DNA of 64,000 nucleotides from Candidatus Hodarchaeota archaeon (lineage in GTDB: Archaea; Asgardarchaeota; Lokiarchaeia; Sigyniarchaeales; SOKP01). Positions 20,585 to 36,821 of the stretch are shown here, piece by piece. The stretch spans positions 107,229-171,228 of the forward strand of contig JBHLKM010000009.1 of the NCBI GenBank assembly GCA_048886685.1, read 5' to 3'. Position 1 is the first letter of the stretch. The number at the start of each line of letters is the position of its first letter. The notes beneath the pieces are model-generated. The model had not been told where the DNA came from, ran no database searches, and saw only the letters and a program-made list of their open reading frames with translations. Made by a program: the position numbers and the translations under genes.

Positions 20585-20598
20585 ACTTGTTTATTTAA
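20585..20598 (+). promoter_or_regulatory. 14-bp element ACTTGTTTATTTAA upstream of the biotin carboxylase
   Basis: Identical element in the same relative orientation upstream of the carboxyltransferase-megasynthase operon (35662-35675, minus strand). Confidence 0.4.
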
Positions 20599-20632
20599 TT
20601 AATAGCATAGTTATAATAATTAACTTTCATTA

Positions 20633-22123
20633 TTGCATTGTATGATCAAATCTGTCTTAATTGCAAATCGTGGAGAGATTGCAGTTAGGGTCATTCGAGC
20701 CTGCCGGTCAAAAGACATTCAATCAATTGCGGTTTTTTCTGACACAGACAAAAATTCTCTCCATGTAAAAATGGCAGATGAGGCTTACAACTTAGGGAAT
20801 GAATCGGTTCAGAGCACTTATCTTAACATTCCAAAGCTGATTGAAGTAATTGAACGATCTAAAGCTGACGCAGTTCACCCAGGATATGGTTTTTTAAGTG
20901 AAAATGCAGAATTTGTTAGAAGAGTTACTAACCTTGGCAAAATCTTTATTGGACCAAGCCCAAGTACCATTGATTTCCTCGGTAATAAGATTAAAGCAAA
21001 AATACTTGCAAAAAAGGTCAATTTGCCTGTTTTACCTGGTTCAGAAGGATTTATTAATAGTTTAGATGAAGCTAAATCAGTAGCAGATGAGATTGGATAT
21101 CCGATAATAATTAAGGCTGCTTTTGGAGGAGGTGGTCGAGGAATGGAAATTGTTGAATCTGAGGAAAATATGGGTACTGCGTTAGAGAGCTGCCAATCAA
21201 TGGGATTAAAGTTTTTTGGAAGAAAAGAAGTTTTTATTGAAAAGTCAATTACAGCACCTCGCCATGTAGAAATTCAATTTATAGGAGATAATTTTGGTAA
21301 TGTTGTCCATTTAGGAGATCGGGAATGCACTATTCAACGATCTCACCAAAAGCTTATTGAGGAAGCCCCTTCCTTCTTAACAAGAGATGAAATTACCAAT
21401 TTAGGTGAAAGAACTTGTTTTTTGGCTCGTGAATTAAATTACTCAAATGTTGGGACGGCAGAATTTCTTTGGAAGGATGGTAACATCTACTTTAATGAAG
21501 TAAATCCAAGAATCCAAGTGGAGCATGTCGTTACAGAAATGGTTACTGGAATAGATTTGGTTGAAGAACAAATAAACATTGCTTCGAACAAACTATTAAA
21601 CTTTACTCAAGAGGAGATTTCATTACATGGACATGCAATAGAGTATAGGATAAATGCTGAAGATCCCCATAACTCATTCTTTCCTCAACATGGAAAAATA
21701 ACAAATTTAATAATTCCGGGAGGCCCAAAAGTACGTTTTGATAGCTATTTATACCCTAATTACGTTGTCCCTCATGATTTTGATTCATTAATAGGAAAAC
21801 TAGTCGTATGGGGAAGGAATCGTAAAAGAGCAATCAACCTTTCTAAACATGCTCTTAAAGAATTAGTTATCTCAGGAATAAAGACGAATTTAGATATGCA
21901 TAAAGTAATAGTTGAGACTTATGAGTTTAAAAAAGGTGAATTATCAACTGATTTCTTAAACAAAACAAATATTACTCATAATTTAAAAGATTTAGAGAGA
22001 AAGAAATTAGCAGCAGTATTTCAATTGGTTAAACAATTTAATTTTTCAATTCAACCTGAAAAAAAACATAAGAAAAAATCTAATAAATGGCGAGATATCG
22101 CAAAAATAGAGCAATTAAGTTAA
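20633..22123 (+). CDS. accC: biotin carboxylase subunit of acetyl/propionyl-CoA carboxylase
   Basis: ANRGEIA, HPGYGFLSEN, GGGGRG, RECTIQR, EVNPRIQVEH, RINAED; likely start MIKSVL. Confidence 0.93.
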   Translation: MHCMIKSVLIANRGEIAVRVIRACRSKDIQSIAVFSDTDKNSLHVKMADEAYNLGNESVQSTYLNIPKLIEVIERSKADAVHPGYGFLSENAEFVRRVTNLGKIFIGPSPSTIDFLGNKIKAKILAKKVNLPVLPGSEGFINSLDEAKSVADEIGYPIIIKAAFGGGGRGMEIVESEENMGTALESCQSMGLKFFGRKEVFIEKSITAPRHVEIQFIGDNFGNVVHLGDRECTIQRSHQKLIEEAPSFLTRDEITNLGERTCFLARELNYSNVGTAEFLWKDGNIYFNEVNPRIQVEHVVTEMVTGIDLVEEQINIASNKLLNFTQEEISLHGHAIEYRINAEDPHNSFFPQHGKITNLIIPGGPKVRFDSYLYPNYVVPHDFDSLIGKLVVWGRNRKRAINLSKHALKELVISGIKTNLDMHKVIVETYEFKKGELSTDFLNKTNITHNLKDLERKKLAAVFQLVKQFNFSIQPEKKHKKKSNKWRDIAKIEQLS

Positions 22124-22159
22124 AAAGAGAAAAAATACCTAATAAAGAGATTGTTATCA

Positions 22160-22675
22160 TTATAAAACAACATAATTTTCTTTCCCTTTTACTGTGGATA
22201 CACTTTCAATTTTAACTAGCGGTTGATCTTGACCAACATCATCTTCTACATTTACAAAGATTTGCATTATTTTTCCTTTAATTGGGGATAATATCCGATT
22301 TTTCATTTTCATTGCCTCTAATATCAACAATAATTGATCCTTTTCAACAAATTCTTGTTCTTCAATATGGATTTCCAAAATCTTTCCAGGAATGGGAGCA
22401 TTTACGGTTTCTTCTTTAACTTGTGGATTTTCATTGTTACTATCTAAAGATTTTAAATAAGGTTTAATTTCAATATCGATTTCTTCACCCTCTAAATATA
22501 GTACTCCATTGATATATTCCAAATTAAACTGACAATCTTCAAATGTTACTCGAAATAAATTTTCTGTTTCCTGAATAACTAAAGGAGTATAGATGTGGTC
22601 ATCAACTTTTATTTTTCCATCATCTATCGGTCGAACAACATAAGTTCTTCCTCGGAATTTTACTTTTTTCAGCAT
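22160..22675 (-). CDS. accB: biotin carboxyl carrier protein
   Basis: APIPG...LEAMKM biotinylation motif. Confidence 0.9.
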   Translation of the reverse strand: MLKKVKFRGRTYVVRPIDDGKIKVDDHIYTPLVIQETENLFRVTFEDCQFNLEYINGVLYLEGEEIDIEIKPYLKSLDSNNENPQVKEETVNAPIPGKILEIHIEEQEFVEKDQLLLILEAMKMKNRILSPIKGKIMQIFVNVEDDVGQDQPLVKIESVSTVKGKENYVVL

Positions 22676-22688
22676 ACTTGTTATCTTT

Positions 22689-23492
22689 TTAACTTGTTCT
22701 TATTGTTTTTACTAGATGAGAATCAAAGAAATCAATAAGATTTTCACACATTTGTTGAAAATGATTTTCATCTGTAAAGTTATGGTTAGCTCCATCAATT
22801 ATATCAATTTTTTTATTTTCAGATTGAACCTTATTGAAAAGTTGGTGAAAACCATGTTCTGGAAATAAGACATCCTTATTACCAGCGATTAAATAAAATG
22901 GTTTTAATAACTTATCAGCTAATCTAACAGGATTATATTGTCTCGTTTGTTCAGCATACTTTATTTTAAGATCGCCATCTGGAAATCGCATTTCTTTATT
23001 GCGCGTTAAAGCTTTTATGAAAAACTTAAACAAGGGATTTTTTGGTATAATTTCAGTATTAAAAACAGGGGAACGTATCGCAAGACATTGAACTCTTTTA
23101 TCTCTTACAGCATGGCAAAAAGCCATTGCACCTCCAAAACTTTCACCTAACAAGCCAATTCTAAGAGGATCTATTTCGGGATGATAGACTAATTGATTTA
23201 TCACTTGTTCAATATTAGCTTGAGCATCATAATAAGTAAATATCCCCGTACTACCTCTAACACCTTGATGATCATAAGTAAAATATGCTATATTATTATT
23301 AACAAAATGACATGCAAATCTCAGTTCATCTTCTTTAGGTGATTTTCCTGGCATTCCATTAACACGTATTACTAATGGGAAACAAGTGTTTTTAGAGTTT
23401 TCAGGCTCTATAATATCAGGTAAATACAGGATACTCTGTAGGATTTCAGTACGAACCTCAATTTCTATCATTTCCTTTCTCATTAGTATCAC
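22689..23492 (-). CDS. alpha/beta hydrolase, candidate stand-alone thioesterase of the megasynthase
   Basis: GESFGG nucleophile elbow, Asp (GNKD) and His (GANH); GTGA overlap with the megasynthase stop. Confidence 0.75.
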   Translation of the reverse strand: MILMRKEMIEIEVRTEILQSILYLPDIIEPENSKNTCFPLVIRVNGMPGKSPKEDELRFACHFVNNNIAYFTYDHQGVRGSTGIFTYYDAQANIEQVINQLVYHPEIDPLRIGLLGESFGGAMAFCHAVRDKRVQCLAIRSPVFNTEIIPKNPLFKFFIKALTRNKEMRFPDGDLKIKYAEQTRQYNPVRLADKLLKPFYLIAGNKDVLFPEHGFHQLFNKVQSENKKIDIIDGANHNFTDENHFQQMCENLIDFFDSHLVKTIRTS

Positions 23493-26400
23493 TGGATTAT
23501 TGGTTTGTTTTTAAAAGGTTTAATCTCACAGTACGAAAGAACATATTTTTCAGAAAATTCAACCCGTAATTGTAGATCTTTAAGATTTCTATTGATGTCT
23601 AACAAGTCATTTTTGGATTTTAAGGTAAATTTATTGTATTTTTTATTATATTTCAATTCAATGTCTCGGAAATTAATATTAAAGCCTTCCCCTATTGCTT
23701 TTGAGAAGGCTTCTTTCGCTGTCCAGTAGATTGTTCCCAGATAGGCATCGTCTAAAATAGTTTTTCTTTCTGATTCAGTAAATACCTCCTTATAGAATGA
23801 TGGGGATCGGGATTCAATTATCTCTAAATCAATGCCAACCAAATTTTTACTTATCATTGCTACTGAAAAATCATTGGAATGACTTATAGAAAGATTAAGT
23901 GGAATTATTTTATTCTCTTTGTTTGAGTAGTAATATGGCTTACCTTTTTCATCCTTTTGAATTTCAAAGTCATGATATGAACCATCAACAGCAATAATCC
24001 TACGATAACATTCTTTTGCGGCAATAATGCCAGAAAAATATTCAATTTTTCTTTTTATATTCCTAAAGCGCTTTGAGTTTTCTATCTCTGTTTCAGTCAG
24101 ATAAGTTTCAAAAAATTTCGGATTTATTTGATATAGATCTTTTAGTTTTGCAATAGGTAGAACTTGAATTTCGTTTTTAATTTTATTATTCTTTAGGTGG
24201 TAATACTCTTTTAAGGTAGTTAGATAATCAGAGAGGTTATTTGAGAGGTTTACTGTAATTTGTGCATGGATGATTTCTAGGTTTTCAATTTTCGCTATAA
24301 TTTCTTGATCTTCATCTAAAATTACCGAGTTATAATAAGATCTCTCCTCGTCTTTTTTTAAGAATTTAGCTACTATGTATTTTGGTCTTTGGTTTGATTT
24401 TATTTGAATAGAGGAGGCTTTTGAGGGAAGAGAGAGATGGTTATTTATGATGTAATCAAATAACGCTGCGGTTTGAAATACACATTCCATGGATAAGGGT
24501 TCAAATTGAAAATGATCCTCTTCCTCATTATTAATAATAGGAACTGTTGGAAGATCGATCTTTGTTACTATTTTTCCTTTCTCTAATTGAATAACTTCTT
24601 CTAGAACTTGAAATTTCTTCCCATGAAAGAAAAGCTCATAAATTTCAGTTTTATCAAGTAAAGGAATTAATGGATTTAAAATTAGATCTTTTTCCCATCT
24701 CATTTCTTTTACTAAATCATCGAACTGAGCATCGAAATGGTTTTTTATTAGTGGTTTTCCTTTTAGAACTGTGGGAAAAGTCTTTGATTGAAGTGATATC
24801 TTATTATTGGATTTATTAAATGTTAGTTCTACTTCTACTGACTTACCTACTGAAATTTTCAGGGGCGTGTGAAAATTAATATTTGAAATAGAGGTTAACA
24901 CCTTATCGAACACTCGATGGTAGAATTCTGCGAATGTTTCTAGAGCCATTACACCAGGAAATACAGGTTTTTTTTGAATTTGATGATCAAGAAGATATGT
25001 GTCGAATTCAGAATTTATGGTGTTAAAACCAATTATATATTCAGATTGATAATTTATTTTTTCTAACATAGGATATTCTTTTTTATCAATAACTTCCTCA
25101 ATATCAAGCATTTCCTCAAAGATCCCTAACTTCCCCGCAATTATATATTCCCCAGTGAAGTTGTTTAATACTAAATTGGTAAATATCTTTATACCAGTTA
25201 TTGAAGGAACAGGTGAAACTCCTGCTTGAGTAAGGATTTGTAAAGTGGAACCTTGAGTAGCCATACCAATATCTGCCCAAGCTGTCCAATCAAAAGTTAA
25301 AAATGGGATATTGCGTTGGTTGAATTCCCAAGCCATACGCGATAAATACGCATTAGCAAATGCATAATCAATTTGACCCTGATTCCCATAACGTCCAGCA
25401 ATTGAGGAAAAAGTTACAAAATATTTGACGTCTTGAATCTTTATATATTTGAGAATTTTTGAAAACCCTCCAACTTTAACATCAACAATTTTATGAGCCA
25501 TATTTAAATTTTTCTTCAAGAAACTTTTTGATTCTTCTATCCCAGCACCATGGATAACAACTGTTATCTGATTTTTAGTTTCTTCATTAATTGTTTGGAA
25601 GATGTTCTTCATTTTTTCATCATTAGTAACGTCTACTGCATAATATTGAACTGAAAGACCTTTTTTCTTCAAATTTTCGATATTACGAAGAGTATCTAAT
25701 TTGTCGAGGAATTTCTTCCATTCTCTGTTAATCATAACAGGAGTTACTTTCTCTAGTGTAGATTTCAATGACTTAACCAATTCTTCCTTTTTCTCACTCA
25801 ACATGTCCGGGGTGTATTGTAAATATTCTAAAAATGAATCATCGTACGGGCTTAATCCTAAAAGAATTAGTTGTGGTTTAGTATGGTTTGTTAATTCATC
25901 AATACAAGCAAAAGTTATTCCTTGTGCTCCTCCTGTAACCAATAATACATCTTCTTCTGTTATCGAAGAATAATTCAATTTTGGGAGCTTTTCTACTTTT
26001 TTTCTTAATAATGTATAACGTACATTTTCCCTGTAGGCTATTTCCTCAAGTTTATCCCAACTCAAGAACTCTTGAGTAATCTGTCCTAAATTCATTGAAG
26101 AAATAAGCTTGATCGGAATCTGAAATTCGCGATTGATTGTTTTTATAAAAGCACCTATACTAGAAGCAAGGGGATTAGCTCCTTGTTTCCAACCGAAAGT
26201 AGTATCTGGAGAAATAACTAAGATTTTTTCTAATATTGATAAATTTAAAGATTGAAAAATGAGAAAAAGACTGTCGAAAATGTTTAAACTATCATTAATG
26301 GTATATTGACTATTATCTGGAATAACCAATATGAGTATCTTGAAATCTATATCAAATGGAAATTCACTATTATTATTATTTAGATCTTTAACTAAATTTT

Positions 26401-29400
26401 CATTAACATCAACATTGAAAATTTGAACATTTAATCCAAAATTTTCAAAATCTTTGCTTAAGTTTTTGTAATTTGATAATCCTGAGTTAATGTTAAGAAT
26501 TAATGTATTAATATCCTTGTATTTCAGATTTTCCTTCGAGGGGAGCAATTTAAAAACTCGGGAAGGAACTACTTTTGACACATAAATTTGGTCATCATTT
26601 TCATTTTCTGATTTTTCTTTTACCTCGCTGATATTTTTGACAGGTTCTAATTCCATATCAACTGATTGCGATTTTTTATTGATGAACTGGATTACAAATT
26701 CAGTGATCTCATTAGGCGTACGGATGTCAGCTATGTTAATTTCAACATTATCTTCTAGTTTGTAATATTCACGCAAGACTCCAAAGATTTCTGCTTGCTT
26801 TACTGTATCAATCCCCAAGTCTTCTTCCAAATCATAAGAATCATCGATATCAGTAAGGTCATAACCAGTTTTGTCAGCAATAATTTTTTTTACTAAATTT
26901 TTTACCTGATTTATATCATCAATTTCATTAGATTTTAATACAATACTTTGCTGTTTAATGCTAATATCTGTTTCCATATTCTGGTCATTTAAGAATTCTC
27001 GCATTTTAAGAATTATATTCTTAATACTGCCAAGTCCTACCAAATTTATTTCTGTGTCCTCTGAGATTTTCAAATCATTCCGAAGTTCTCCAAAAATCTC
27101 CGCTTGTTTGACAGTATCAATACCTAAATCCTCTTCTAAATCAAACTCAGGATCGATATCTTCAATATCGTATCCTGTCTTTTTAGAAATGATTTCAATT
27201 AACTTATTTTCAAGTGATTTATTATCTAAACCCGAGGAACTATTACTAGAAACAATATCATGACCTAAAGACTCATTGAGCATGTGAACGATATCATTTA
27301 TAGTGCGATAGTCTGCTATATTGAATGAATCATCAATTTCAATTTTCCATTTTTCTCGGATTTCTCCGAAAATCTCTGCTTGTTTGACAGTATCAATTCC
27401 AAGATCTTCCTCCAAATCATAGGTTTCTTCAATGTCTTCTGGATTATAACCGGTCTTTAAAGCGATGATTTTTTTGATCTCAACTATCATATCGATTTTA
27501 CCAACCGAAATTGATTGCTGAGGGATTTCTGTTTCTTTTGGTGATTGAATTGTAGTAATTATAGCAGAAATACGTTCTGTATTCATCTTTAAGACTCTAC
27601 CATCCATGAATACTTGTGTCCCGCTCCCACCTACATTTTGAAGCCATTGTTCATAGTTTGGTTTGGTAAAACGATTATCATATGATACTAAACGGAATAA
27701 GACAATGGCTAATTGTGAACCGAATCCAGCGGCAAAACGTAAAGCATATTTCTTTCGTTCTCTTACTCCTTTTGAAAAGTTGAAATTTGAATAGTTTGAA
27801 TCTATCTTATTAAAATTCGCTATCGGGGGAATTTTTCCTTTCTCCATTGATTTAATTGCCACAGCTTCTTCAATACCTGCACCCATCGCATGACCAGTAT
27901 ATCCCTTCGTATTAATTATAATCATATCATAAGCATTTTTACCAAATGTATTTTCTAATGCTCTTAATTCTGATTCCGCACTTCCACCTCGAGCAGGGGA
28001 ATAAGTTTCATGACTTACAAACATCCCTTCATTAGCCAATTCTCTTTTACTAATACCATGTACTTTTTCCATCTTTAAAATAAAATCGTTAAGTCTTTGG
28101 GAAATATCATCCTTATCTAATCGTGTACCATGATAAGCGCTATTCCCAAAATAAGAACCAAGAATTTCTACAATTGGTTTTACTCCTCGAGCTTCAGCTT
28201 CGGAATTTTGTTCAATAACAAATGCACTTGCTCCTGCACCTAATACAATTCCATTCCTTCCTTCTCCAAAGGGAAGTACTGCTTCCTCCCATCGAGATTT
28301 TGTTGTAGCGGCTCCACTTGCAATAAATCCTGCACCAATCCATTGAAAAAGGTTCTTACTTGTTACATTATCGGCAGTGATTACAACAACTCGTTTACAT
28401 CTCCCAGTTCGAATCCAGTCTTCTGCAATACCTATTGCTTGAGGTGCAGAAGCACAAGCTGCATTAATAGATGTATTTGGTCCTTTAGCTTTTATTAATT
28501 GAGCAAATTGAGAATGTCCCATAGATAAAACTCTAAATAAAAATGAGCGATTAAAATTTTCTACACTTTCCTCACTAGAATTTAATTGATTGAATTTAAA
28601 ATTAGAGCACTGTTGAGAATCTTCTGCAAAATTATCGTATCCTGGAAATGCAGATGCAAAAATGATACCTGTATCATCTTGTAATGATTCTGGTAAAGCC
28701 CAGTCACCAGATAATGTCTTACCCGTAGAGGTTTTAATAGTGCTACGAACTAATGGAATTCCCGCGTCTTTAAGTGCATCATATCCTGCACAAATTGCTA
28801 GTTGGAATGTAGTATCTAAAGCATTTAGGATTTTAGGATTAAGTTGATAATCCTCTGTCGGGTTAAAATCCCCCATCTGTCCTGCCAAGTGAATTACTTT
28901 AGAAATATCATCTATAGGCACAAATTTAGCATTACCATTAGGGGATTTTTCCAAACGAATTATATTTTTTTGATATAATTGTTCTTGAAATTCACTACTT
29001 ACCGATTCGATTAGATTAACTCCATCTAAAATATCATCGATATTTTTATCATCAAAAATTTTACGATTTTTGCCAGGAAGTCCAATACCTACACCAGTGA
29101 TTACGACAGGTGTAGAATTAAGCAGTGATCCTTTCTTATCATATTTATTTTCAATTGAAATATGATATTTCTTAAGATAATTATGAAATCCTTGAATCAT
29201 AACCGAAGACAAAAGTTCTTTTTGTTCTTCTAGAAATTCATTAAAAAATGGAAGTTGCTTTAATTTAGATAAGTCTTCATTCGAAATTAAAGAATTTTGA
29301 TTTTTTTCAAGTGTAGGGGATTTTTTCGATATTTTTGGTTTTTGATCTGGAATAGCTGGTGGTTGAGTTTTGATTTCATCAATGGGGCTAGCTGATTTTA

Positions 29401-32400
29401 TACTACTGAACTTCTCAAAAATCTTTTGAATATGCTCTTCTTCAGAAGATTTTGGTGAAAGTGTAAAATCAACCTCAATATCTTTATATTTTTTTAATAT
29501 ATCTTTTGTAAAAAAGAAGAGAGCCTTTTTTGGTCCGATTTCTATAAATTTTCGGCCCCCATTTTGATAAATATTCAAAATCTCATCAACCCATCTAACA
29601 GGGGATGTAATTTGCTTAAGAAGGATTGATTTTATTTTGTCAGGATTATCAGGATATATTTTGCCTGTTACATTACTAAATACAGGTATTCTAGGAGATT
29701 TAAATTCTATTGTTTTCAAAAAGCTTTCCAATTTTTCTTCAGCGTGAGTGACAAATTTAGAATGAAATGCATTTGACACGTTTAATTTTAGAGCTCGAAT
29801 TTCTTTTTCTGAAAATACTTTCACTACAGATTCAACTGCCGATAACTCTCCTGATATGACCGTTTGAGATGTAGAGTTATAATTTGATATTGAAACATCA
29901 TCAATTGATAGCTCATCTAAAGTTTTCTCAACAACTTCCGGTGATATAAATATCGCCGCCATAGAACATTGAACACCAAGAGGTAACTTTGACATTGCTT
30001 CTCCCCTTTTGATTACAATTTTTAACCCATCTTCAAAACTCAATACTCCTGCTGTAGTTAAAGCCACGAATTCCCCTAAGCTATGACCTCCAACAATTCC
30101 CGGAGTTAAATCTTTAGTTTTAAAAAGTTGCAATAGAGCCATTTCAACTGAATAAATAGCCGGTTGAGTGAACTCCGTTTGTTGTAATCTATTGGAATTT
30201 TCTTCTTGTGATAAATTTGGAGATCCAAAAATTACTTCTAGTAGGTCAAAACCACCAAAATCTTTACATATATCGTTTGCTTTATCAAGTGTATCTTTGA
30301 CGACTTGGAACTTTTCGTATAATTCCCTTGACATCCCTACATATTGACTTCCTTGACCACTAAAAAGAAAACATAAATCGGTTGAATACGGAGTACTCAA
30401 ATGATCAAGTTGAGGTTCAAAATGATCATACATATGTTCTTCACATAGAGGATACGATCTAGCTTTTTCTATCGATGATATCTCGTAGGATTGAGGTAAG
30501 AATTCTTCGAGGATTACATGATAATTTGCCCCTCCAAATCCGAATGATGAAACACCGGCTCTTCTTATTCCTGTTTTGGGAGTTAACCACTCAATTGGTT
30601 CCGTATTAACATAATAAGGAGCCGTATCCCAATTTATTGTGGGATTAAGAGTTGAAATGTTAATAGATGGAGGAATAATTTTATTATGTAATGCTAATAC
30701 TGTTTTAATAATACCAGCTATACCTGCAGCACTTTTGAGGTGTCCAATTTGACTTTTTATTGACCCAATTGCTAGTTTTTGCTTTTCATTTCTTTCAGAA
30801 AACACATCGTCTAGCACATTTAATTCAGTAGCATCTCCAACGACTGTAGATGTTCCATGGCATTCAAGATATTGAATGTCTGATGGGCTTATATTACTAT
30901 TCTTTAAAGCCCGTAATATGGCTAATTTTTGTCCATCTGGATTGGGTGCAGTAATGCCCTTACCTTTTCCATCTGAAGAACCCCCATACCCCATAATAAT
31001 CGCATAAATTTTGTTCTCATCACGTAATGCATCTTCAAGGCGTTTTAAAACTAAAAATCCAGCTCCTTCTCCCATAACAAACCCGTTAGCACGAGCATCA
31101 AAGGGATATGAGCCATCTTCAGACAAAGCACCAATTTTACAGAATTTAATGTATGTTTGAGGATCCATTGAACTATCGACCCCCCCTACAAGGACTGTAT
31201 CATAATCCTTAACTAGTAACCCATTAACAGCTGTATCAATTGCGGCTAAACTAGAAGCACAAGCAGCATCAATTGTCATGCTTTTACCAGTTAAATTAAA
31301 CACGTTTGCGACTCTACCAGCAATTATGTTTGACAATTCACCTGGCATAGTATCTTCGTTAATCACTGGAATTTGATTAATTATTTTATCTTCAAGGAAA
31401 TTTAGAAGATTATTTTTTTCTTCTTTCTTCAGAATCATCAGAGAGCTTGCTTCATTGATTCTATATTTGATTTCATTAAAAAGTATACGTTTATTGCTGA
31501 GACGTTGTTTATCTCCCCCTAAGGAGTTTCCAACGATAATTGCAATGGGCAAACGTTTTTTCCCGTCAAAAGGATACCCCGCATCAAGAAGTGCTTCTTT
31601 TGCTGTAATAATAGCCCATATCTGAACTAAGTCCATCCTTTCTGCCATTTTTGGAGGAATTCGATATTTAATAGATTTAAATTCAAATTTTTTCACAAAT
31701 CCACCAATTTTTGTATATGATTTATCGGGGGATGAATGATCTTTATCATAAAAGATTTCAGGTTCCCATCTGTCTATGGGAACTTCTGTAATCGAATAAT
31801 TTTTATTCACAATATTTTTCCAGAATTGTGGAATGTCCTCAGCATCTGGAAAGAGACCTCCTAAGCCAATGATGGCTATTTTATTTACTATGGACAACTT
31901 TTTTTGTGATTTTTTATCCTTTTCCATTATTACTTGACCTAAAGAATCTTTTATTGTTTGATTCGATATTTTTTTGATAAATTTGTAACCCCCTTCAATT
32001 ATATCATAATGTATTTGGGGGATTGTTCTAATTGTATTTTGTAAGGAAATAGAATCACCTGTCATAAATGCACCTTTAACTACTTGGTCTTTTACTGAGA
32101 TCGAAGTAAATTGGGACTTCTCGCTCCCTTCTATATGATTATCATTCCAAATCTCAGCTCTGGAAGCTATTCTTAGTGCACCTAAATTGTCTTTCTCATA
32201 CAATTCTTTTCTTTGCGAAATAGAAATACCTTGCGCTTTTCGCAAAAATTCTTGCTTAATAGTGTGATGGGAAAATTCGGTAGAGATTACCCTTGCTCGA
32301 GTATTTACAGTTGTGCCAATCACTTTTGTAGATGAATTATTAAGTAATAATTCTTGATAAACTGGGGATAAAGCTCTAGTTGTCACAATTTCTTCGCTTA

Positions 32401-34060
32401 AGAGGTAAGCAGTTCCCATTTGAATACCAGGATTTATAATATCTAAATGATTTCCAATCATACCTCCCAACATAGCTGAACTTACTTCATCAATAATCCC
32501 ACCAGCAAAAATAACATTTAATTTCTCGGTGAATATATCTTTTTCCTTATCCAAATATTCTAAAATACACTCCCAAAGAATGAAAGATGATAATGTTCCA
32601 AAATGACCTCCACACTCACTACCTTCTAATATCATATAATCGAGGTTACTTTTTATGGCTTTTTTAAACATAGAAAGCACAGGTGTGTGTATTAAGACCT
32701 TATTGCCTAAATTCTTAACTTGAACACCAAGATCAATAGTACCAGCGGCAATTAAGGTGATTTCGGGACCATACTTTTTAATACATCTAAGATGTTCATC
32801 CCTACGAGTCTTTACAGCTTCTAAACCTATAATACCACAACCGTATGGCTTCTTTGATAAATCTTTCACACTAATGTTTGATAAGAGTTCAACTGTTTCA
32901 GTTGATAATAATCCACCTAAAGCTAATATTGGAAGGGCACCATTATCTGCTACTTTTCTAGCAAATTCTAATTTATCAGAGATATTCGCCATTGGCCCTT
33001 GAATAATGGGATATGTAATGTTTAGTTGTTTCGCAAATTCAGAATTTTTGGCAAAAGGCCAATGTTCTATACTATTTTGAATCTGATTAGAGATTATTTT
33101 AACTAAATCATTTAGAAATTTTTTTAAATCGCCGAACTTGGCTAAAATATAGTTCGCAAAACAAATACCATGATCACTTGGTAAAAAAGAATGGTTGGGC
33201 TCTGTATCAGAATATATATGACAATGATTTTGAAATTTGGTAATTCTATGAAGAAATTCATGTTTGAGAGTAAAATAATCATTGTTAAATTCTTCATTTA
33301 ATTTTGAAAAATCTTTTTGCTCAACTTCCTTTATTGATCGAATTGATTTATTAGCCAATTTTCCAATCAAACGATAATTATATCGTAAAGTTTCATGTAC
33401 AAGATAAAAATCATTCTCTTCAATTGTCTTAATATAATTTTTAAATTTTTGATTTAAAGGACATTCAGGTAGCAAGAATAACTGACTTTCTAATACGATT
33501 CCTAAAGTCCCACCAATAAATGCTGAACATATGTTATATACCCCAAAACCTCCCTGAATTATGAATGGAAGACCTGCTTTTTGGAATTCTTGAATGAGTA
33601 TAAAAGTATTTTTAGTTCCGACTAAACCACCTGCTTCATTCCCTTTAACAAGAAAAAAGTCTGCCCATTCCGCGGTTTCATAAGCTTCTTCTAAGTATAA
33701 CACTTCGGAAAGAATTAATTTTGAATTTTTCTGCATTATAAGAATTTCCTTATAATTTGGAGAGAATGCACAGATGATAATTGGAATTAGTTCTTGAAAT
33801 TCGAGTGCATAAAGGACTTCTTGAGAAGAAATCCGGATACCCCATATGTGATCAGAAGATAAAGATGATTTTAATTTATTAAAAAGTATTTTACATTGAT
33901 CAATATTAAGTCCTTCAAAATCTACTAAACCAATTCCCCCGGTCTGGCATATTTGAACTGAAAGTGAAGGATCTGTTATACCTTTTGGTGAATAACCCCA
34001 AATAGGAATTCTGTTTTTTAAAATTTGCTGGATATTCTTTTTCTTTTTCATAAAAATCAA
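23489..34060 (-). CDS. type I iterative FAS/PKS megasynthase (PUFA-synthase-related): ER*-ER-KS-MAT-KS-ACPx3-KR-DH-PPTase
   Basis: FabK/PfaD-like barrels (~31980-34060; GPMANISD, EGSECGGH); KS1 ~30505-31885 (DAACASS, HGTS, KSQIGH); AT ~29530-30380 (GQGSQ, GHSLG, AFHS); KS2 ~27690-29115 (NAACAS, SHETYS, KGYTGH); three ACPs ~26680-27490 (DLGIDTVKQAE); KR ~25140-25950 (TGGAQGI, DYAFAN); DH ~24260-25070 (LLDHQIQKKPVFP); PPTase ~23520-24140 (ISHS, GIDLE, WTAKEAFSKA). Confidence 0.92.
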   Translation of the reverse strand: MIFMKKKKNIQQILKNRIPIWGYSPKGITDPSLSVQICQTGGIGLVDFEGLNIDQCKILFNKLKSSLSSDHIWGIRISSQEVLYALEFQELIPIIICAFSPNYKEILIMQKNSKLILSEVLYLEEAYETAEWADFFLVKGNEAGGLVGTKNTFILIQEFQKAGLPFIIQGGFGVYNICSAFIGGTLGIVLESQLFLLPECPLNQKFKNYIKTIEENDFYLVHETLRYNYRLIGKLANKSIRSIKEVEQKDFSKLNEEFNNDYFTLKHEFLHRITKFQNHCHIYSDTEPNHSFLPSDHGICFANYILAKFGDLKKFLNDLVKIISNQIQNSIEHWPFAKNSEFAKQLNITYPIIQGPMANISDKLEFARKVADNGALPILALGGLLSTETVELLSNISVKDLSKKPYGCGIIGLEAVKTRRDEHLRCIKKYGPEITLIAAGTIDLGVQVKNLGNKVLIHTPVLSMFKKAIKSNLDYMILEGSECGGHFGTLSSFILWECILEYLDKEKDIFTEKLNVIFAGGIIDEVSSAMLGGMIGNHLDIINPGIQMGTAYLLSEEIVTTRALSPVYQELLLNNSSTKVIGTTVNTRARVISTEFSHHTIKQEFLRKAQGISISQRKELYEKDNLGALRIASRAEIWNDNHIEGSEKSQFTSISVKDQVVKGAFMTGDSISLQNTIRTIPQIHYDIIEGGYKFIKKISNQTIKDSLGQVIMEKDKKSQKKLSIVNKIAIIGLGGLFPDAEDIPQFWKNIVNKNYSITEVPIDRWEPEIFYDKDHSSPDKSYTKIGGFVKKFEFKSIKYRIPPKMAERMDLVQIWAIITAKEALLDAGYPFDGKKRLPIAIIVGNSLGGDKQRLSNKRILFNEIKYRINEASSLMILKKEEKNNLLNFLEDKIINQIPVINEDTMPGELSNIIAGRVANVFNLTGKSMTIDAACASSLAAIDTAVNGLLVKDYDTVLVGGVDSSMDPQTYIKFCKIGALSEDGSYPFDARANGFVMGEGAGFLVLKRLEDALRDENKIYAIIMGYGGSSDGKGKGITAPNPDGQKLAILRALKNSNISPSDIQYLECHGTSTVVGDATELNVLDDVFSERNEKQKLAIGSIKSQIGHLKSAAGIAGIIKTVLALHNKIIPPSINISTLNPTINWDTAPYYVNTEPIEWLTPKTGIRRAGVSSFGFGGANYHVILEEFLPQSYEISSIEKARSYPLCEEHMYDHFEPQLDHLSTPYSTDLCFLFSGQGSQYVGMSRELYEKFQVVKDTLDKANDICKDFGGFDLLEVIFGSPNLSQEENSNRLQQTEFTQPAIYSVEMALLQLFKTKDLTPGIVGGHSLGEFVALTTAGVLSFEDGLKIVIKRGEAMSKLPLGVQCSMAAIFISPEVVEKTLDELSIDDVSISNYNSTSQTVISGELSAVESVVKVFSEKEIRALKLNVSNAFHSKFVTHAEEKLESFLKTIEFKSPRIPVFSNVTGKIYPDNPDKIKSILLKQITSPVRWVDEILNIYQNGGRKFIEIGPKKALFFFTKDILKKYKDIEVDFTLSPKSSEEEHIQKIFEKFSSIKSASPIDEIKTQPPAIPDQKPKISKKSPTLEKNQNSLISNEDLSKLKQLPFFNEFLEEQKELLSSVMIQGFHNYLKKYHISIENKYDKKGSLLNSTPVVITGVGIGLPGKNRKIFDDKNIDDILDGVNLIESVSSEFQEQLYQKNIIRLEKSPNGNAKFVPIDDISKVIHLAGQMGDFNPTEDYQLNPKILNALDTTFQLAICAGYDALKDAGIPLVRSTIKTSTGKTLSGDWALPESLQDDTGIIFASAFPGYDNFAEDSQQCSNFKFNQLNSSEESVENFNRSFLFRVLSMGHSQFAQLIKAKGPNTSINAACASAPQAIGIAEDWIRTGRCKRVVVITADNVTSKNLFQWIGAGFIASGAATTKSRWEEAVLPFGEGRNGIVLGAGASAFVIEQNSEAEARGVKPIVEILGSYFGNSAYHGTRLDKDDISQRLNDFILKMEKVHGISKRELANEGMFVSHETYSPARGGSAESELRALENTFGKNAYDMIIINTKGYTGHAMGAGIEEAVAIKSMEKGKIPPIANFNKIDSNYSNFNFSKGVRERKKYALRFAAGFGSQLAIVLFRLVSYDNRFTKPNYEQWLQNVGGSGTQVFMDGRVLKMNTERISAIITTIQSPKETEIPQQSISVGKIDMIVEIKKIIALKTGYNPEDIEETYDLEEDLGIDTVKQAEIFGEIREKWKIEIDDSFNIADYRTINDIVHMLNESLGHDIVSSNSSSGLDNKSLENKLIEIISKKTGYDIEDIDPEFDLEEDLGIDTVKQAEIFGELRNDLKISEDTEINLVGLGSIKNIILKMREFLNDQNMETDISIKQQSIVLKSNEIDDINQVKNLVKKIIADKTGYDLTDIDDSYDLEEDLGIDTVKQAEIFGVLREYYKLEDNVEINIADIRTPNEITEFVIQFINKKSQSVDMELEPVKNISEVKEKSENENDDQIYVSKVVPSRVFKLLPSKENLKYKDINTLILNINSGLSNYKNLSKDFENFGLNVQIFNVDVNENLVKDLNNNNSEFPFDIDFKILILVIPDNSQYTINDSLNIFDSLFLIFQSLNLSILEKILVISPDTTFGWKQGANPLASSIGAFIKTINREFQIPIKLISSMNLGQITQEFLSWDKLEEIAYRENVRYTLLRKKVEKLPKLNYSSITEEDVLLVTGGAQGITFACIDELTNHTKPQLILLGLSPYDDSFLEYLQYTPDMLSEKKEELVKSLKSTLEKVTPVMINREWKKFLDKLDTLRNIENLKKKGLSVQYYAVDVTNDEKMKNIFQTINEETKNQITVVIHGAGIEESKSFLKKNLNMAHKIVDVKVGGFSKILKYIKIQDVKYFVTFSSIAGRYGNQGQIDYAFANAYLSRMAWEFNQRNIPFLTFDWTAWADIGMATQGSTLQILTQAGVSPVPSITGIKIFTNLVLNNFTGEYIIAGKLGIFEEMLDIEEVIDKKEYPMLEKINYQSEYIIGFNTINSEFDTYLLDHQIQKKPVFPGVMALETFAEFYHRVFDKVLTSISNINFHTPLKISVGKSVEVELTFNKSNNKISLQSKTFPTVLKGKPLIKNHFDAQFDDLVKEMRWEKDLILNPLIPLLDKTEIYELFFHGKKFQVLEEVIQLEKGKIVTKIDLPTVPIINNEEEDHFQFEPLSMECVFQTAALFDYIINNHLSLPSKASSIQIKSNQRPKYIVAKFLKKDEERSYYNSVILDEDQEIIAKIENLEIIHAQITVNLSNNLSDYLTTLKEYYHLKNNKIKNEIQVLPIAKLKDLYQINPKFFETYLTETEIENSKRFRNIKRKIEYFSGIIAAKECYRRIIAVDGSYHDFEIQKDEKGKPYYYSNKENKIIPLNLSISHSNDFSVAMISKNLVGIDLEIIESRSPSFYKEVFTESERKTILDDAYLGTIYWTAKEAFSKAIGEGFNINFRDIELKYNKKYNKFTLKSKNDLLDINRNLKDLQLRVEFSEKYVLSYCEIKPFKNKPIIQ
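26680..27490 (-). repeat. three tandem acyl-carrier-protein repeats inside the megasynthase
   Basis: II..KTGY....I....DLEEDLGIDTVKQAEIFG.[IL]R repeated three times. Confidence 0.85.
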
Positions 34061-34072
34061 CCAGTTTTATAG

Positions 34073-35644
34073 TTATACCGGGGAGATCCCATGTTTTCTT
34101 CTAGGAGTCTGTTCACGTTTAGTTTCAAAAAAGTTCAGATATTTAATGATCTCGCTGCGAGTTTCATGTGGAAAGATTACTTTATCTATATGTCCTTTTT
34201 CAGCGACTTGATAAGGATTTGAAAATTCTTTTTTATAGCATTCAGTGAAATCCTTTAATATAGCATCGGGATCTTCTACATCCTTTAAATGATTTCGAAA
34301 CAGAATCTTACATGCACCTTCAGCACCCATCACGGCAATTTGGGCCGAATTCCATGCGATATTAACATCTGCTCCCAATTCTTTTGAATTCATGACAATA
34401 TAAGCACCGCCATAAGCTTTACGAATAATAACAGTAATTTTTACGATTGTAGCTTCTGAATATGCATATAACATTTTAGCACCATGCCTGATAATTCCAG
34501 AGTGTTCTTGTTTAACGCCAGGCATAAATCCCGGAACGTCTACTAGGGTCAAAAGAGGTATATTAAAAGCATCACAGAATCTAATAAATCTTGTCGCTTT
34601 ATCCGATGCATTGTAATCTAGAGCTCCACTAAGGAACATAGGTTGATTCGCAATTATACCCACAGTCTGATTTTCTATTTTCCCGAACCCAATTATTATA
34701 TTTTTTGCCCAATCTGGAAAAAGTTCTAAAAATGAATCTTGATCCACTATTACATTAATTACACTTTTCATGTTATATGGTTCATCTTCATTTTTTGGTA
34801 CTATTTGTTCTAATAAATAGGGATCTTCACCATAAATTTGCTTTAAAGAGTGAGGAATATCATCTAAATTATTTGACGGGATATATGATAATAGTTTCTT
34901 GGTGAATTCTAATGCTTCTTCTTCAGTATCTAAGGCTTTATGACATACCCCTGAAATAGTCGAATGAACTTCTGAACCTCCTAATTCTGAAAAAGAGGTA
35001 TTTTCTCCTGTTACTGCATTTACTACTTGAGGTCCTGTTATAAACATATAAGCGTTCTTTCCACCCATAATAATAAAATCTGTTAATGCTGGACTATAAA
35101 CTGCCCCTCCAGCAGAAGTGCCTAAGATAACAGAAATTTGAGGGATAATTCCTGAAGCTCGAACATTTCGATAAAAAATATCCCCTAACCCGTCAAGGGC
35201 ATCAACTCCTTCTTGAATACGAGCACCTCCCGAATCTATTAATCCAATTAAAGGACAACCCATTTTTAAGGCTAAATCCATGATTTTACAAATTTTCTGA
35301 GCATGAGCTTTCCCTATAGTCCCTCCCAATACTGTAAAATCTTGACTATAAATGAATACTCTTCGACCCTCTATTGTACCATAACCAGTTATTACCCCAT
35401 CTCCAAGAAATTTCTTTTTTTCCATACCAAATTTATTACACTGATGCTTAACAAATGAATCAATTTCTACAAAGGTTCCGAAATCTACCAGAAATTCGAG
35501 TCTTTCCCTAGCAGTTAATTTACCCTTTTTATGTTGAATATCAATATGATCTTGTCCACCCCCTAATTTGGACTCATTTCGTAACTCTTGTAGCTTCTCT
35601 GTCAATTCAAAGTTATCTTCTGATTTACCATCCTTTAAAATCAT
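34073..35644 (-). CDS. acyl-CoA carboxylase carboxyltransferase subunit (PccB/AccD single-chain type)
   Basis: GKLTARER, QDFTVLGG, DSGGARIQEG, DVPGFMPG, RKAYGGA, KHG.SP. Confidence 0.92.
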   Translation of the reverse strand: MILKDGKSEDNFELTEKLQELRNESKLGGGQDHIDIQHKKGKLTARERLEFLVDFGTFVEIDSFVKHQCNKFGMEKKKFLGDGVITGYGTIEGRRVFIYSQDFTVLGGTIGKAHAQKICKIMDLALKMGCPLIGLIDSGGARIQEGVDALDGLGDIFYRNVRASGIIPQISVILGTSAGGAVYSPALTDFIIMGGKNAYMFITGPQVVNAVTGENTSFSELGGSEVHSTISGVCHKALDTEEEALEFTKKLLSYIPSNNLDDIPHSLKQIYGEDPYLLEQIVPKNEDEPYNMKSVINVIVDQDSFLELFPDWAKNIIIGFGKIENQTVGIIANQPMFLSGALDYNASDKATRFIRFCDAFNIPLLTLVDVPGFMPGVKQEHSGIIRHGAKMLYAYSEATIVKITVIIRKAYGGAYIVMNSKELGADVNIAWNSAQIAVMGAEGACKILFRNHLKDVEDPDAILKDFTECYKKEFSNPYQVAEKGHIDKVIFPHETRSEIIKYLNFFETKREQTPRRKHGISPV

Positions 35645-35661
35645 AATAATCCCATATTTAT

Positions 35662-35675
35662 TTAAATAAACAAGT
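35662..35675 (-). promoter_or_regulatory. 14-bp element ACTTGTTTATTTAA upstream of the carboxyltransferase-megasynthase operon
   Basis: Exact match to 20585-20598; overlaps the palindrome TTTATTTAAATAAA (35657-35670). Confidence 0.4.
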
Positions 35676-36815: not shown

Positions 36816-36821
36816 TAAGCA

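What the first reader, a model, noticed from the sequence alone, without database searches (positions are those of the whole stretch)
23489..34060. Unusual single-chain architecture combining PUFA-synthase and fungal-FAS-like design features
Seen: the ER is an N-terminal FMN TIM-barrel type (FabK/PfaD/nitronate-monooxygenase-like), not the MDR-type ER of animal FAS or modular PKS. A PPTase is fused at the C-terminus and there is no integrated TE. Established: TIM-barrel ERs occur in PfaD and fungal/CMN FAS, a C-terminal PPTase occurs in the fungal FAS alpha chain, and PUFA synthases spread these functions over several genes. Inference: a distinct self-activating megasynthase class, informative for type I FAS evolution either by convergence or by relationship.
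Basis: partly seen in the sequence, partly recalled or inferred. Interest (0 to 1): 0.75.

Follow-up and report, generated by a model that had tools for sequence, protein, structure and literature searches.

The report
Self-priming fatty-acid megasynthase in Asgard archaeon
One 3,523-residue protein in a Loki-type Asgard archaeon carries every activity needed to build a saturated fatty-acyl chain and to activate its own carrier domains; it is the only such machinery in a genome from a group usually said to lack it, but it belongs to a large, uncharacterised, mostly bacterial enzyme family and is not related to fungal fatty acid synthase.

Summary
It has no thioesterase domain.

- The enzyme is not a class of its own. 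It belongs to the Pfa-like "Type R/S" secondary-lipid synthases of Shulse & Allen (2011). More than 599 loci turned up across bacterial phyla, Thermoplasmatota and Asgard archaea.
- The identical fused order occurs in Desulfomonilaceae.
- The likeness to fungal FAS is convergent. The ER is FabK-like and the PPTase is a two-lobed Sfp type.

Four things are notable.
- The host is an Asgard archaeon, and the only KS, ACP and PPTase domains in its genome are in this protein.
- A six-gene cassette (carboxylase subunits, biotin ligase, synthase, α/β-hydrolase) is conserved from Loki- to Heimdall-type genomes. It is missing from the same site in a congener.
- KS2 keeps its Cys-His-His triad.
- Every ACP has Thr where carrier proteins have the phosphopantetheine Ser, and this holds family-wide.

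The product is most likely a saturated fatty acyl chain. Its cellular role is not established. This scan has already flagged the same family in at least 15 other genomes.

The parts
23489..34060 (-). Megasynthase ORF of 3,523 codons counted from the TTG. The probable ATG start is at 34051.
33056..34060 (-). ER1: divergent NMO/FabK-type TIM barrel (residues 1-335). It has GNEAGGL where ER2 has the catalytic His, so it is probably non-catalytic. The KGxEAGG motif is conserved family-wide.
31916..33055 (-). ER2: FabK-like FMN enoyl reductase (residues 336-715). His486 in GSECGGH is invariant.
30461..31915 (-). KS1 (residues 716-1200), PfaA/PKS-like. Cys934, His1068 and His1107 are invariant.
29456..30388 (-). 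Acyltransferase (residues 1225-1535) with GHSLGE Ser1327, Arg1352 and an xAFH motif. This is the malonyl-type signature.
27581..29140 (-). KS2 (residues 1641-2160): a divergent KS in the chain-length-factor position. Cys1869, His2017 (SHETYSP) and His2057 are invariant.
26693..27493 (-). Three tandem ACP domains (residues 2190-2456), each reading DLGIDTVKQAE. Thr2224, Thr2316 and Thr2419 sit where carrier proteins have the phosphopantetheine Ser. Their codons are at 27389-27391, 27113-27115 and 26804-26806.
25961..26623 (-). Stretch before the KR (residues 2480-2700) with no Pfam match. I infer from its position only that it is the structural KR subdomain.
   Evidence: inference
25181..25960 (-). 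Ketoreductase (residues 2701-2960) with GGxxGIT, Ser2886, Tyr2899 and Asn2903 invariant.
24191..25093 (-). PKS-type double-hotdog dehydratase (residues 2990-3290). His3026 is invariant, and the second motif reads ExxxQ.
23492..24190 (-). Two-lobed Sfp-type phosphopantetheinyl transferase (residues 3291-3523). The motifs KGKP, LSISHS, GIDLE and WTAKEAFSKAIG are intact.
22689..23492 (-). Alpha/beta-hydrolase of 267 aa with a GESFG nucleophile elbow. Its start overlaps the synthase stop codon. It is the candidate releasing thioesterase.
22160..22675 (-). Biotin carboxyl carrier protein.
20633..22123 (+). Biotin carboxylase, acetyl-CoA carboxylase type.
34073..35644 (-). Carboxyltransferase (12S, PccB/MmdA type). 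It is the first gene of the operon.
36060..36815 (+). Biotin-protein ligase BirA (TIGR00121, 126 bits against a cut-off of 83).
20585..20602 (+). 18-nt motif ACTTGTTTATTTAATTAA upstream of the biotin carboxylase gene. Its only other copy in the window lies upstream of the carboxyltransferase-synthase operon.
35658..35675 (-). Second copy of the 18-nt motif, 14-31 nt upstream of the carboxyltransferase start.

Best explanation
This is an iterative, fully reducing type I synthase of the Pfa-like 'Type R/S' family, and it works as a self-contained fatty-acid synthase.

Proposed sequence of events:
1. The adjacent biotin carboxylase, BCCP and carboxyltransferase, biotinylated by the adjacent BirA, make malonyl-CoA.
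2. The AT loads malonyl units onto the three tandem ACPs.
3. KS1 and KS2, both with full Cys-His-His triads, carry out the condensations, probably dividing the work by chain length.
4. KR, the PKS-type DH and the FabK-like ER2 reduce each beta-keto group fully. ER2 is packed against the non-catalytic ER1 barrel as an in-chain pseudo-dimer. With no FabA-type isomerase present, the product is a saturated acyl chain.
5. The C-terminal Sfp-type PPTase primes the ACPs in cis, apparently on Thr instead of Ser.
6. The translationally coupled alpha/beta-hydrolase releases the chain.

Shown here: the domain set, the conserved catalytic residues, the folds, the cassette, and that this is the only such machinery found in the genome.
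Inferred: activity, the division of labour between the two KS domains, Thr priming, release by the hydrolase, chain length, and the fate of the product (acyl lipids through the genome's PlsY/PlsC homologues, or a specialised lipid).
For: Domains are all above the Pfam cut-offs.

Catalytic residues are invariant across ten sequences at 32-50% identity: KS1 C934/H1068/H1107, AT S1327/R1352/H1433, KS2 C1869/H2017/H2057, KR S2886/Y2899/N2903, DH H3026 and ER2 H486.

Structure models:
- The ER didomain model has pLDDT 87 and pTM 0.91, and its best matches are FabK.
- The DH-PPTase model has pLDDT 85. The DH matches PKS dehydratases at Z about 26, and the PPTase matches two-lobed PPTases at Z 17.5-19.4.
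- PPTase motifs are intact.

In the whole genome (completeness 100) the only KS, PP-binding and ACPS domains found are in this ORF. No FabA/FabZ and no PlsX were found.

The cassette order BirA, CT, synthase, hydrolase, BCCP, BC is conserved in Loki- and Heimdall-type genomes. Bacterial family members also have a carboxylase gene directly downstream.

55 of 59 megasynthase-positive Asgard genomes have PlsY, against 60 of 241 negative ones.

Shulse & Allen suggested that the Type S enzyme may be the core FAS of Desulfobacterium autotrophicum, which lacks fabA and fabZ (PMC3098273).
Against: - There is no biochemical evidence for any family member that I could find.
- The ACPs lack the canonical Ser. 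From memory only, a Ser-to-Thr change blocks priming of E. coli ACP by AcpS.
- In the window's own family the synthase is rare (5 of 67 species) while PlsY (39/67) and PlsC (59/67) are common. PlsC was not found at E<=1e-10 in two families where the synthase is nearly universal (0/28 and 0/11). The link to those acyltransferases is therefore loose.
- PlsY normally needs acyl-phosphate from PlsX, which was not found.
- Per a 2026 paper's summary of Imachi et al. 2020, lipid analysis of the cultured Asgard archaeon found only archaeal lipids (PMC13400652). I do not know whether that strain has this gene.
- The carboxyltransferase is of the PccB/MmdA type, so a methylmalonyl-related role for the carboxylase is not excluded.
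Confidence: 0.6

Rival explanations
1. The chemistry is the same, but the enzyme is an accessory 'secondary lipid' synthase. It would make a specialised long-chain lipid, such as an envelope, storage or signalling lipid, and not bulk membrane fatty acids.
For: - Distribution is patchy in the window's own family (5 of 67 species; 4 of 21 in its genus).
- The whole six-gene cassette is missing between the same flanking genes in a congener, and sits on the other side of PepF in another.
- The genome has a GGGP synthase, so archaeal ether lipids are expected.
- Characterised relatives outside this family, such as HglE and ArsA, make specialised lipids (PMC3098273).
Against: - The synthase is nearly universal in several other Asgard families (26/28, 10/11, 11/11).
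- It is the only ACP-dependent machinery found in the genome.
- It co-occurs with PlsY.
- No tailoring genes such as glycosyltransferases, type III PKS or reductases lie in the conserved cassette.
Confidence: 0.3
2. The carrier domains cannot be primed because Thr replaces Ser. The protein would then be inactive, or would work on CoA-bound or otherwise non-covalently held substrates.
For: Thr aligns exactly with the modified Ser of solved ACPs. I found no paper describing Thr-linked phosphopantetheine.
Against: - DLGIDT is fixed in nearly all ACPs of 120 homologues at 28-79% identity, and serves as a signature across at least 599 loci.
- All catalytic residues and the PPTase motifs are conserved.
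- A PPTase is always fused or adjacent.
- A few orthologous ACPs read DLGIDS, so the position is evidently the functional one.
Confidence: 0.07
3. The architecture is related to fungal or CMN-type FAS by descent. That would make it an evolutionary intermediate of type I FAS.
For: Both have an FMN TIM-barrel ER and a PPTase at a C-terminus (established knowledge of fungal FAS).
Against: - The ER model matches FabK far better than yeast FAS (TMt 0.86 against rank 49).
- The PPTase is the two-lobed Sfp type. The fungal PPT domain 2was aligns to one lobe only.
- The best whole-protein family is PfaA (907 bits), and the DH is the PKS double-hotdog type.
- The tandem ACPs and the KS-AT-KS order have no fungal counterpart.
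Confidence: 0.03
4. The gene lies on a bacterial contig that was mis-binned into an archaeal genome.
For: Contamination is estimated at 8.4%. One near relative carries a 'Zixibacteria' label.
Against: - The contig is longer than 171 kb.
- The gene's G+C (31-35%) matches its flanks.
- The flanks are shared with congeners at 70-87% protein identity.
- Orthologues lie in closed Asgard genomes: Ca. Heimdallarchaeum aukensis CP084166 and Ca. Harpocratesius repetitus.
- The 'Zixibacteria' cluster also contains Heimdallarchaeota members.
Confidence: 0.02

Closest known systems
'Type R' (and S/T) Pfa-like secondary-lipid synthase clusters, Shulse & Allen 2011 (PMC3098273): Ca. Koribacter, Ca. Solibacter, Elusimicrobium, Roseiflexus; Type S in Desulfobacterium autotrophicum
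   Same: - The core order is KS-MAT-'CLF'-ACP(3-6)-KR with a linked PPTase.
- A carboxylase gene is linked to the synthase.
- Korobacteraceae, Elusimicrobiota, Chloroflexota and Desulfobacterales loci fall in the same family and tree.
- The product is unknown there too.
   Different: - Here two ER barrels are fused at the N-terminus and the PPTase at the C-terminus.
- The 'CLF' keeps a full Cys-His-His triad.
- The host is an archaeon without a type II FAS.
- The cassette also holds a conserved alpha/beta-hydrolase and BirA.
- That paper does not list archaea, and it does not mention the Thr carriers in the passages I read.
Bacterial single-chain homologues in Desulfomonile tiedjei, Desulfomonilaceae and other Thermodesulfobacteriota (P0119, P0104, P0121; L046, L047)
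   Same: The domain order is identical: ER1-ER2-KS1-AT-KS2-ACP(2-3)-KR-DH-PPTase, with Thr-ACPs.
   Different: They are only 30-37% identical to the window's protein. They sit inside the bacterial part of the tree and are not sister to the Asgard group. No adjacent alpha/beta-hydrolase was detected. They are uncharacterised.
PUFA synthase PfaA-E of marine gamma-proteobacteria (TIGR02813)
   Same: PfaA is the best whole-protein family match (907 bits). Shared features are tandem ACPs, KS-AT...KR-DH on one chain, an FMN-type ER (PfaD) and an Sfp-type PPTase (PfaE).
   Different: - The score is below the family cut-off of 1010.
- No FabA-type dehydratase/isomerase domains were found anywhere in the genome, so no cis double bonds are expected.
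- ER and PPTase are fused in rather than being separate genes.
- The ER resembles FabK more than PfaD.
- The carriers have Thr instead of Ser.
Fungal type I FAS (alpha chain with a C-terminal PPT; beta chain with a TIM-barrel ER)
   Same: Both have an FMN TIM-barrel ER and an in-chain PPTase that allows self-priming.
   Different: The fungal PPT is a single-lobe AcpS type, whereas this one is the two-lobed Sfp type. The ER fold match is remote (rank 49). Domain order, the DH type and the tandem ACPs are unrelated, so the resemblance is convergent.
Thraustochytrid PUFA synthase ERb-ERc heterodimer (PMC13311796)
   Same: Two different FMN-type ER domains pair with each other. This is a precedent for reading ER1-ER2 as an in-chain pseudo-dimer.
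   Different: There the two ERs lie on separate subunits and both bind FMN. Here ER1 lacks the catalytic His, and the pairing is only predicted (pTM 0.91).

Membership tests
Pfa-like secondary-lipid synthase, Type R/S (Shulse & Allen 2011) | pfaA homologue with the order KS-MAT-CLF(KS2)-tandem ACPs-KR | tested here: met
   the order is described in PMC3098273
Pfa-like secondary-lipid synthase, Type R/S (Shulse & Allen 2011) | A PPTase encoded with the synthase | tested here: met
   It is fused at the C-terminus here. It is adjacent or fused in relatives.
Pfa-like secondary-lipid synthase, Type R/S (Shulse & Allen 2011) | The KS groups phylogenetically with Type R/S organisms | tested here: inconclusive
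   Korobacteraceae, Elusimicrobiota, Chloroflexota and Desulfobacteraceae loci share the family signatures and one tree with the window's protein. However, the paper's own reference strains and an outgroup such as PfaA or HglE were not in my tree.
PUFA synthase PfaA (NCBIfam TIGR02813) | Whole-protein score at or above the curated cut-off (1010.1 bits) | tested here: not met
   907.3 bits
PUFA synthase (pfaABCDE system) | FabA-type dehydratase/isomerase domains (PfaC) that introduce cis double bonds | tested here: not met
   PF07977 was not found in the ORF or anywhere in the genome, which is rated 100% complete.
Fungal type I FAS | AcpS-type (single-lobe) PPT domain at the C-terminus of the chain | tested here: not met
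   Two ACPS-like halves are present. Both lobes align to PptT, AASDHPPT and Sfp (Z 17.5-19.4), while 2was aligns to one lobe only (Z 13.8).
Fungal type I FAS | ER domain closest to the fungal FAS ER | tested here: not met
   FabK gives TMt 0.86 and E 1e-18; yeast FAS 6ql9 ranks 49th with TMt 0.13.
FabK-type (FMN, TIM-barrel) enoyl-ACP reductase | TIM-barrel fold with the conserved GGH catalytic His | tested here: met
   ER2 has His486 invariant and the model matches FabK. ER1 has the fold but Leu at that position.
Sfp-type (group II) phosphopantetheinyl transferase | Two-lobed pseudo-dimer with the GxD...E and (W/F)xxKE(A/S)xxK motifs | tested here: met
Carrier protein (PP-binding, PF00550) | Conserved Ser of the DSL motif as the phosphopantetheine attachment site | tested here: not met
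   Thr is at that position in all three ACPs. The fold family itself is matched above cut-off.
Chain-length factor (KS-beta of PfaC and type II PKS) | Loss of the active-site Cys | tested here: not met
   KS2 keeps Cys1869, His2017 and His2057, invariant in the family.

The most novel reading that the evidence does not exclude
Asgard archaea, including the Heimdall-type lineages in which the gene is nearly universal, would carry an old, vertically maintained, ACP-dependent de novo fatty-acid synthase. It would prime its own carriers through a threonine-linked phosphopantetheine, a linkage I could not find described. It would also feed ester-lipid synthesis through PlsY-type acyltransferases. 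That would amount to a working bacterial/eukaryote-style fatty-acid pathway in the archaeal group nearest to eukaryotes.
Probability: 0.3. Interest if true: 0.9.

Novelty: new variant of a known kind. Interest (0 to 1): 0.68.

Why it matters
**Archaeal fatty-acid synthesis.** Recent literature still states that archaea lack type I and type II FAS, and that ACP and ACP synthase are absent from nearly all of them (bioRxiv 10.1101/2024.07.05.601840). Papers on Asgard lipids discuss PlsY and PlsC but not a source of acyl chains (PMC6737245, PMC13400652). A complete, self-priming synthase with its own malonyl-CoA supply makes the question directly testable: can Asgard archaea make fatty acids, and so bridge the 'lipid divide' that matters for eukaryogenesis? 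The synthase is conserved from Loki- to Heimdall-type genomes.

**Carrier chemistry.** The family-wide Thr carriers and the always-linked PPTase suggest an undescribed variant of carrier-protein priming.

**Megasynthase engineering.** The protein is a natural single-chain design holding an ER pseudo-dimer, two active KS domains and a PPTase.

Tried and rejected
- **Literature.** Eight full-text searches found no paper on the Asgard enzyme, on a characterised Type R/S member, or on Thr-linked phosphopantetheine. The library is incomplete, so this is not proof of absence.
- **rRNA and tRNA.** None were found in the window or genome to name the organism. Host identity rests on homologue labels and synteny.
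- **Direction of transfer.** FastTree gave one Asgard group (support 93). IQ-TREE with LG+C20 gave an Asgard grade between Desulfobacterales and the other bacteria. Under LG+G4 the AU test does not reject Asgard monophyly (delta lnL 1.25, p 0.47). With no outgroup in hand, neither the donor nor the root is resolved. The AU test under the mixture model did not finish.
- **PlsC as a partner.** Rejected as a consistent partner, because PlsC does not track the synthase.
- **LipB reading of the BPL_LplA_LipB gene.** Rejected: it is BirA.
- **Mobile-element boundaries.** No flanking repeats were found around the cassette.
- **The 18-nt promoter motif.** It is not conserved in a congener.
- **Sigma-70 promoter and terminator scan.** Uninformative, with counts at shuffle level and an archaeal host.
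- **PPTase in the Foldseek list.** DH matches filled the list for the DH-PPTase model. The PPTase assignment comes from the VIA-align run.
Full report
**1. What is there**

window:23489-34060(-) is a single open frame of 3,523 codons. The TTG at 34060 opens the frame. An ATG three codons further in (34051), 21 nt after the stop of the upstream gene, is the likelier start, and a database protein 100% identical to the window's is 3,520 aa long.

I mapped the domains with Pfam and NCBIfam and a BLAST domain map:

| Domain | Residues |
|---|---|
| ER1 | 1-335 |
| ER2 | 336-715 |
| KS1 | 716-1200 |
| AT | 1225-1535 |
| KS2 | 1641-2160 |
| ACP x3 | 2190-2456 |
| Unassigned, probably structural KR | 2480-2700 |
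| KR | 2701-2960 |
| DH | 2990-3290 |
| PPTase | 3291-3523 |

There is no thioesterase domain and no unassigned stretch large enough to hide one. It missed three things: the ER is a tandem pair, a second KS sits between the AT and the ACPs, and a hydrolase gene is coupled to the 3' end.

**2. Are the parts intact?**

I aligned ten family members at 32-50% identity to the query. The following residues are invariant:
- KS1: Cys934, His1068, His1107.
- AT: Ser1327, Arg1352, His1433. The motifs GHSLGE and xAFH are the malonyl-type signature, by established knowledge of AT motifs.
- KS2: Cys1869, His2017, His2057.
- KR: the GGxxGIT motif plus Ser2886, Tyr2899, Asn2903.
- DH: His3026.
- ER2: His486, in GSECGGH.

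KS2 is therefore not a Cys-less chain-length factor. ER1 has GNEAGGL at the corresponding place, but its own motif (KGxEAGG) is conserved across 19 sequences. It looks like a maintained, probably non-catalytic barrel. The PPTase keeps KGKP, LSISHS, GIDLE and WTAKEAFSKAIG.

**3. Folds**

- *ER didomain.* An AlphaFold2 model of residues 1-715 (19-sequence alignment) has pLDDT 87 and pTM 0.91. That pTM implies a confident fixed packing of the two barrels.
  - Foldseek's best matches are FabK enzymes (TM on target 0.86, E 1e-18).
  - PfaD (4z9r) comes at E 4e-9, and yeast FAS only at rank 49.
  - A precedent for two unlike ER domains pairing is the thraustochytrid ERb-ERc heterodimer (PMC13311796).
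- *DH and PPTase.* A model of residues 2990-3523 has pLDDT 85 and pTM 0.86.
  - The DH matches PKS double-hotdog dehydratases (Z about 26).
  - The last 230 residues align over both lobes to group II PPTases: 7ed2 at Z 19.4, PptT at 19.1, AASDHPPT at 19.1 and Sfp at 17.5.
  - AcpS and the fungal FAS PPT domain (2was, Z 13.8) align to one lobe only.
  - Sequence searches agree.

The two 'fungal-like' features are thus a FabK-type ER and an Sfp-type PPTase, the same kinds that PUFA synthases use as PfaD and PfaE. The likeness to fungal FAS is convergent.

**4. Carriers with threonine**

Each ACP reads DLGIDTVKQAE. The Thr aligns with the phosphopantetheinylated Ser of PigH, AcpM and Aquifex ACP. 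An earlier first-reader note of this scan pointed me to it.

I tested its spread. Nearly every ACP in 120 homologues at 28-79% identity has Thr, in bacteria as well as archaea, and a few orthologous copies have Ser. The peptide E[AE]DLGIDT[VI], together with the KS2 peptide F[MV]SHETY[TS]P, retrieved at least 599 loci from species-representative genomes.

So Thr is a fixed family trait and not decay. Priming on Thr by the always-linked PPTase is the simplest reading, but it is unproven, and I found no paper describing it.

**5. Host and genome context**

- Full-length homologues at 68-79% identity come from Promethearchaeota/Lokiarchaeum genomes. One is KKK41857 of Lokiarchaeum GC14_75, auto-annotated 'Pks15/1'.
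- Homologues at 45-53% identity come from Heimdallarchaeota and from Ca. Harpocratesius repetitus, which has a closed genome.
- Ca. Heimdallarchaeum aukensis (closed genome CP084166) has it too.
- The window's flanks are shared with congeners at 70-87% protein identity, and the gene's G+C matches its surroundings. Mis-binning is therefore unlikely.

In the window's genome (4.4 Mb, completeness 100, contamination 8.4):
- The only ketosynthase, PP-binding and ACPS domains found are in this ORF, apart from one weak hit (21.5 bits) inside a thiolase gene at window 46144-47490.
- FabA/FabZ and PlsX were not found.
- A GGGP synthase is present, so archaeal ether lipids are expected as well.

**6. 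The cassette**

Around the synthase lie a carboxyltransferase (34073-35644, same strand), an alpha/beta-hydrolase, BCCP, a biotin carboxylase and BirA. The hydrolase's GTG start overlaps the synthase's TGA stop.
- The order BirA, CT, synthase, hydrolase, BCCP(, BC) is kept in other Loki-type genomes (L004, L086) and in Heimdall-type genomes (L006, L028).
- Most bacterial relatives have BC, or CT plus BC, directly downstream, but no detectable hydrolase.
- The hydrolase has a GESFG elbow and resembles S33/Hydrolase_4 esterases. It is the obvious candidate for chain release.
- In a congener (G308) the same flanking genes, PepF and a thiolase, are 2.3 kb apart with unrelated genes between them. 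In the window they are 16.3 kb apart and enclose exactly the six cassette genes. In another congener (G206) the cassette lies on the other side of PepF.

The cassette therefore behaves as one gain-or-loss unit.

**7. Distribution and history**

Among 300 sampled Asgard species, 59 have the synthase. It is found in 5 of 67 species in the window's family (4 of 21 in its genus) but in 26/28, 10/11 and 11/11 in three other families. In large families with counts 0/76, 0/19 and 0/21 it was not found. One of the positive families has a version without the fused ER.

Three architectures exist:
- **A.** ER1-ER2-KS1-AT-KS2-ACPn-KR-DH-PPT, in Loki- and Heimdall-type Asgard genomes and in Desulfomonilaceae and other Thermodesulfobacteriota.
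- **B.** The same without the ER, in other Asgard lineages, Thermoplasmatota and most bacterial phyla.
- **C.** ER1-ER2-KS1-KS'-AT-KS2-ACPn-KR-DH without the PPTase, in Desulfobacterales and a few others.

Trees on KS1+AT+KS2:
- Loki sequences form a clade sister to one Heimdall clade, with full support.
- The Desulfomonilaceae fused forms fall among bacteria and not next to Asgard.
- Whether all Asgard sequences form one group depends on the model. The AU test under LG+G4 does not reject it (p 0.47).
- Without an outgroup, the donor and the root remain open.

This is not a recent transfer into this genome. It is an old Asgard gene set with patchy retention in Loki-type lineages.

**8. Fate of the product**

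The genome has two tandem PlsY-like genes of 400 and 404 aa, each a PlsY domain plus an unknown C-terminal half. It also has a 558-aa protein with two PlsC-type domains.
- 55 of 59 synthase-positive genomes have PlsY, against 60 of 241 negative ones. These genomes are related, so the contrast overstates independence.
- PlsY and PlsC are common in the window's family where the synthase is rare.
- PlsC was not found at E<=1e-10 in two families where the synthase is universal.

The link to ester-lipid synthesis is therefore suggestive and not established. A specialised-lipid role is a serious rival.

**9. Comparison with what is known**

The core matches the 'Type R' cluster (KS-MAT-CLF-ACP3-6-KR plus PPTase, sometimes with a carboxylase gene). 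The ER-bearing Desulfobacterales forms match 'Type S', which Shulse & Allen suggested might be the core FAS of D. autotrophicum (PMC3098273). A later review called these possible remnants (PMC4882568). I found no functional study.

Against PUFA synthase: the PfaA model scores below its cut-off (907 against 1010), and no FabA-type domains exist in the genome. Against fungal FAS: see section 3.

**10. Verdict**

The protein is a new variant (fused ER pseudo-dimer, fused PPTase, archaeal host) of a known but uncharacterised kind.

Its interest does not lie in kinship with fungal FAS. It lies in giving Asgard archaea an autonomous ACP-dependent fatty-acid machine, and in the threonine carriers. 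Earlier follow-ups of this scan reached the same reading on other genomes. I read those only after my own analysis, apart from the first-reader notes.

Noticed in passing
window 26804-26806, 27113-27115, 27389-27391 (-); homologues P0002-P0121: All three ACPs have Thr at the phosphopantetheine Ser position. This is fixed in nearly all ACPs of 120 homologues and in a signature found at 599 or more loci. A few Heimdall-type copies read DLGIDS.
   Followed up: yes
window 20585-20602 (+) and 35658-35675 (-): The 18-nt motif ACTTGTTTATTTAAWTAA occurs only twice in 64 kb (0.07 expected). Each copy lies upstream of a cassette transcription unit (BC, and CT-synthase), in the same orientation relative to the gene. 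It is not conserved in a congener.
   Followed up: partly
G000 C13:6176-8711 (L083:3176-5711, -): Two tandem PlsY-like genes of 400 and 404 aa. Each has a PlsY domain at residues 15-191 and a C-terminal half of about 200 aa with no Pfam match. Loki-type relatives share this long form, while the Heimdall-type ones are about 240 aa.
   Followed up: partly
G000 C21:60331-62889 (L084:3331-5890, +): A 558-aa protein with two PlsC-type acyltransferase domains is followed by an FAD_binding_4 ORF that is cut by the contig end. Alkyl-DHAP-synthase-like enzymes carry that domain.
   Followed up: no
L085 (G308 C43) 6140-8428 compared with window 20478-36822: A congener lacks the whole six-gene cassette between PepF and the thiolase. 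In its place it has a Pol-beta-type nucleotidyltransferase gene and a JAB-domain gene. In G206 (L086) the cassette lies on the other side of PepF.
   Followed up: partly
L006 (Ca. Heimdallarchaeum aukensis CP084166) 9992-26457: The synthase appears as two ORFs. A 1,510-aa ORF (ER1-ER2-KS1-part of AT) is followed by a 2,729-aa ORF that starts again inside KS1. The hydrolase-BCCP pair also occurs twice. This is either a tandem duplication or an assembly artefact.
   Followed up: no
window 42946-47490 (-) and 7340-9016 (-): Acyl-CoA dehydrogenase and thiolase genes lie at 44832-47490, with two unscanned ORFs just downstream (42946-44735). A methylmalonyl-CoA mutase lies at 7340-9016. Genes for acyl-CoA breakdown and propionate metabolism thus lie near the synthase cassette.
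   Followed up: no
P0074-P0118; L008, L011, L019, L022 and others: The Desulfobacterales (and one Spirochaetes-labelled) versions carry an extra KS-like domain between KS1 and the AT, and lack the fused PPTase.
   Followed up: partly
P0049 cluster: A protein labelled 'candidate division Zixibacteria' shares a 90% cluster with Heimdallarchaeota proteins and sits inside an Asgard clade. It is probably a mis-binned contig.
   Followed up: partly
window 12983-15505 and 16717-18621 (+): Two wHTH-TPR regulator paralogues lie just outside the cassette. The same pair flanks the locus in congeners.
   Followed up: no
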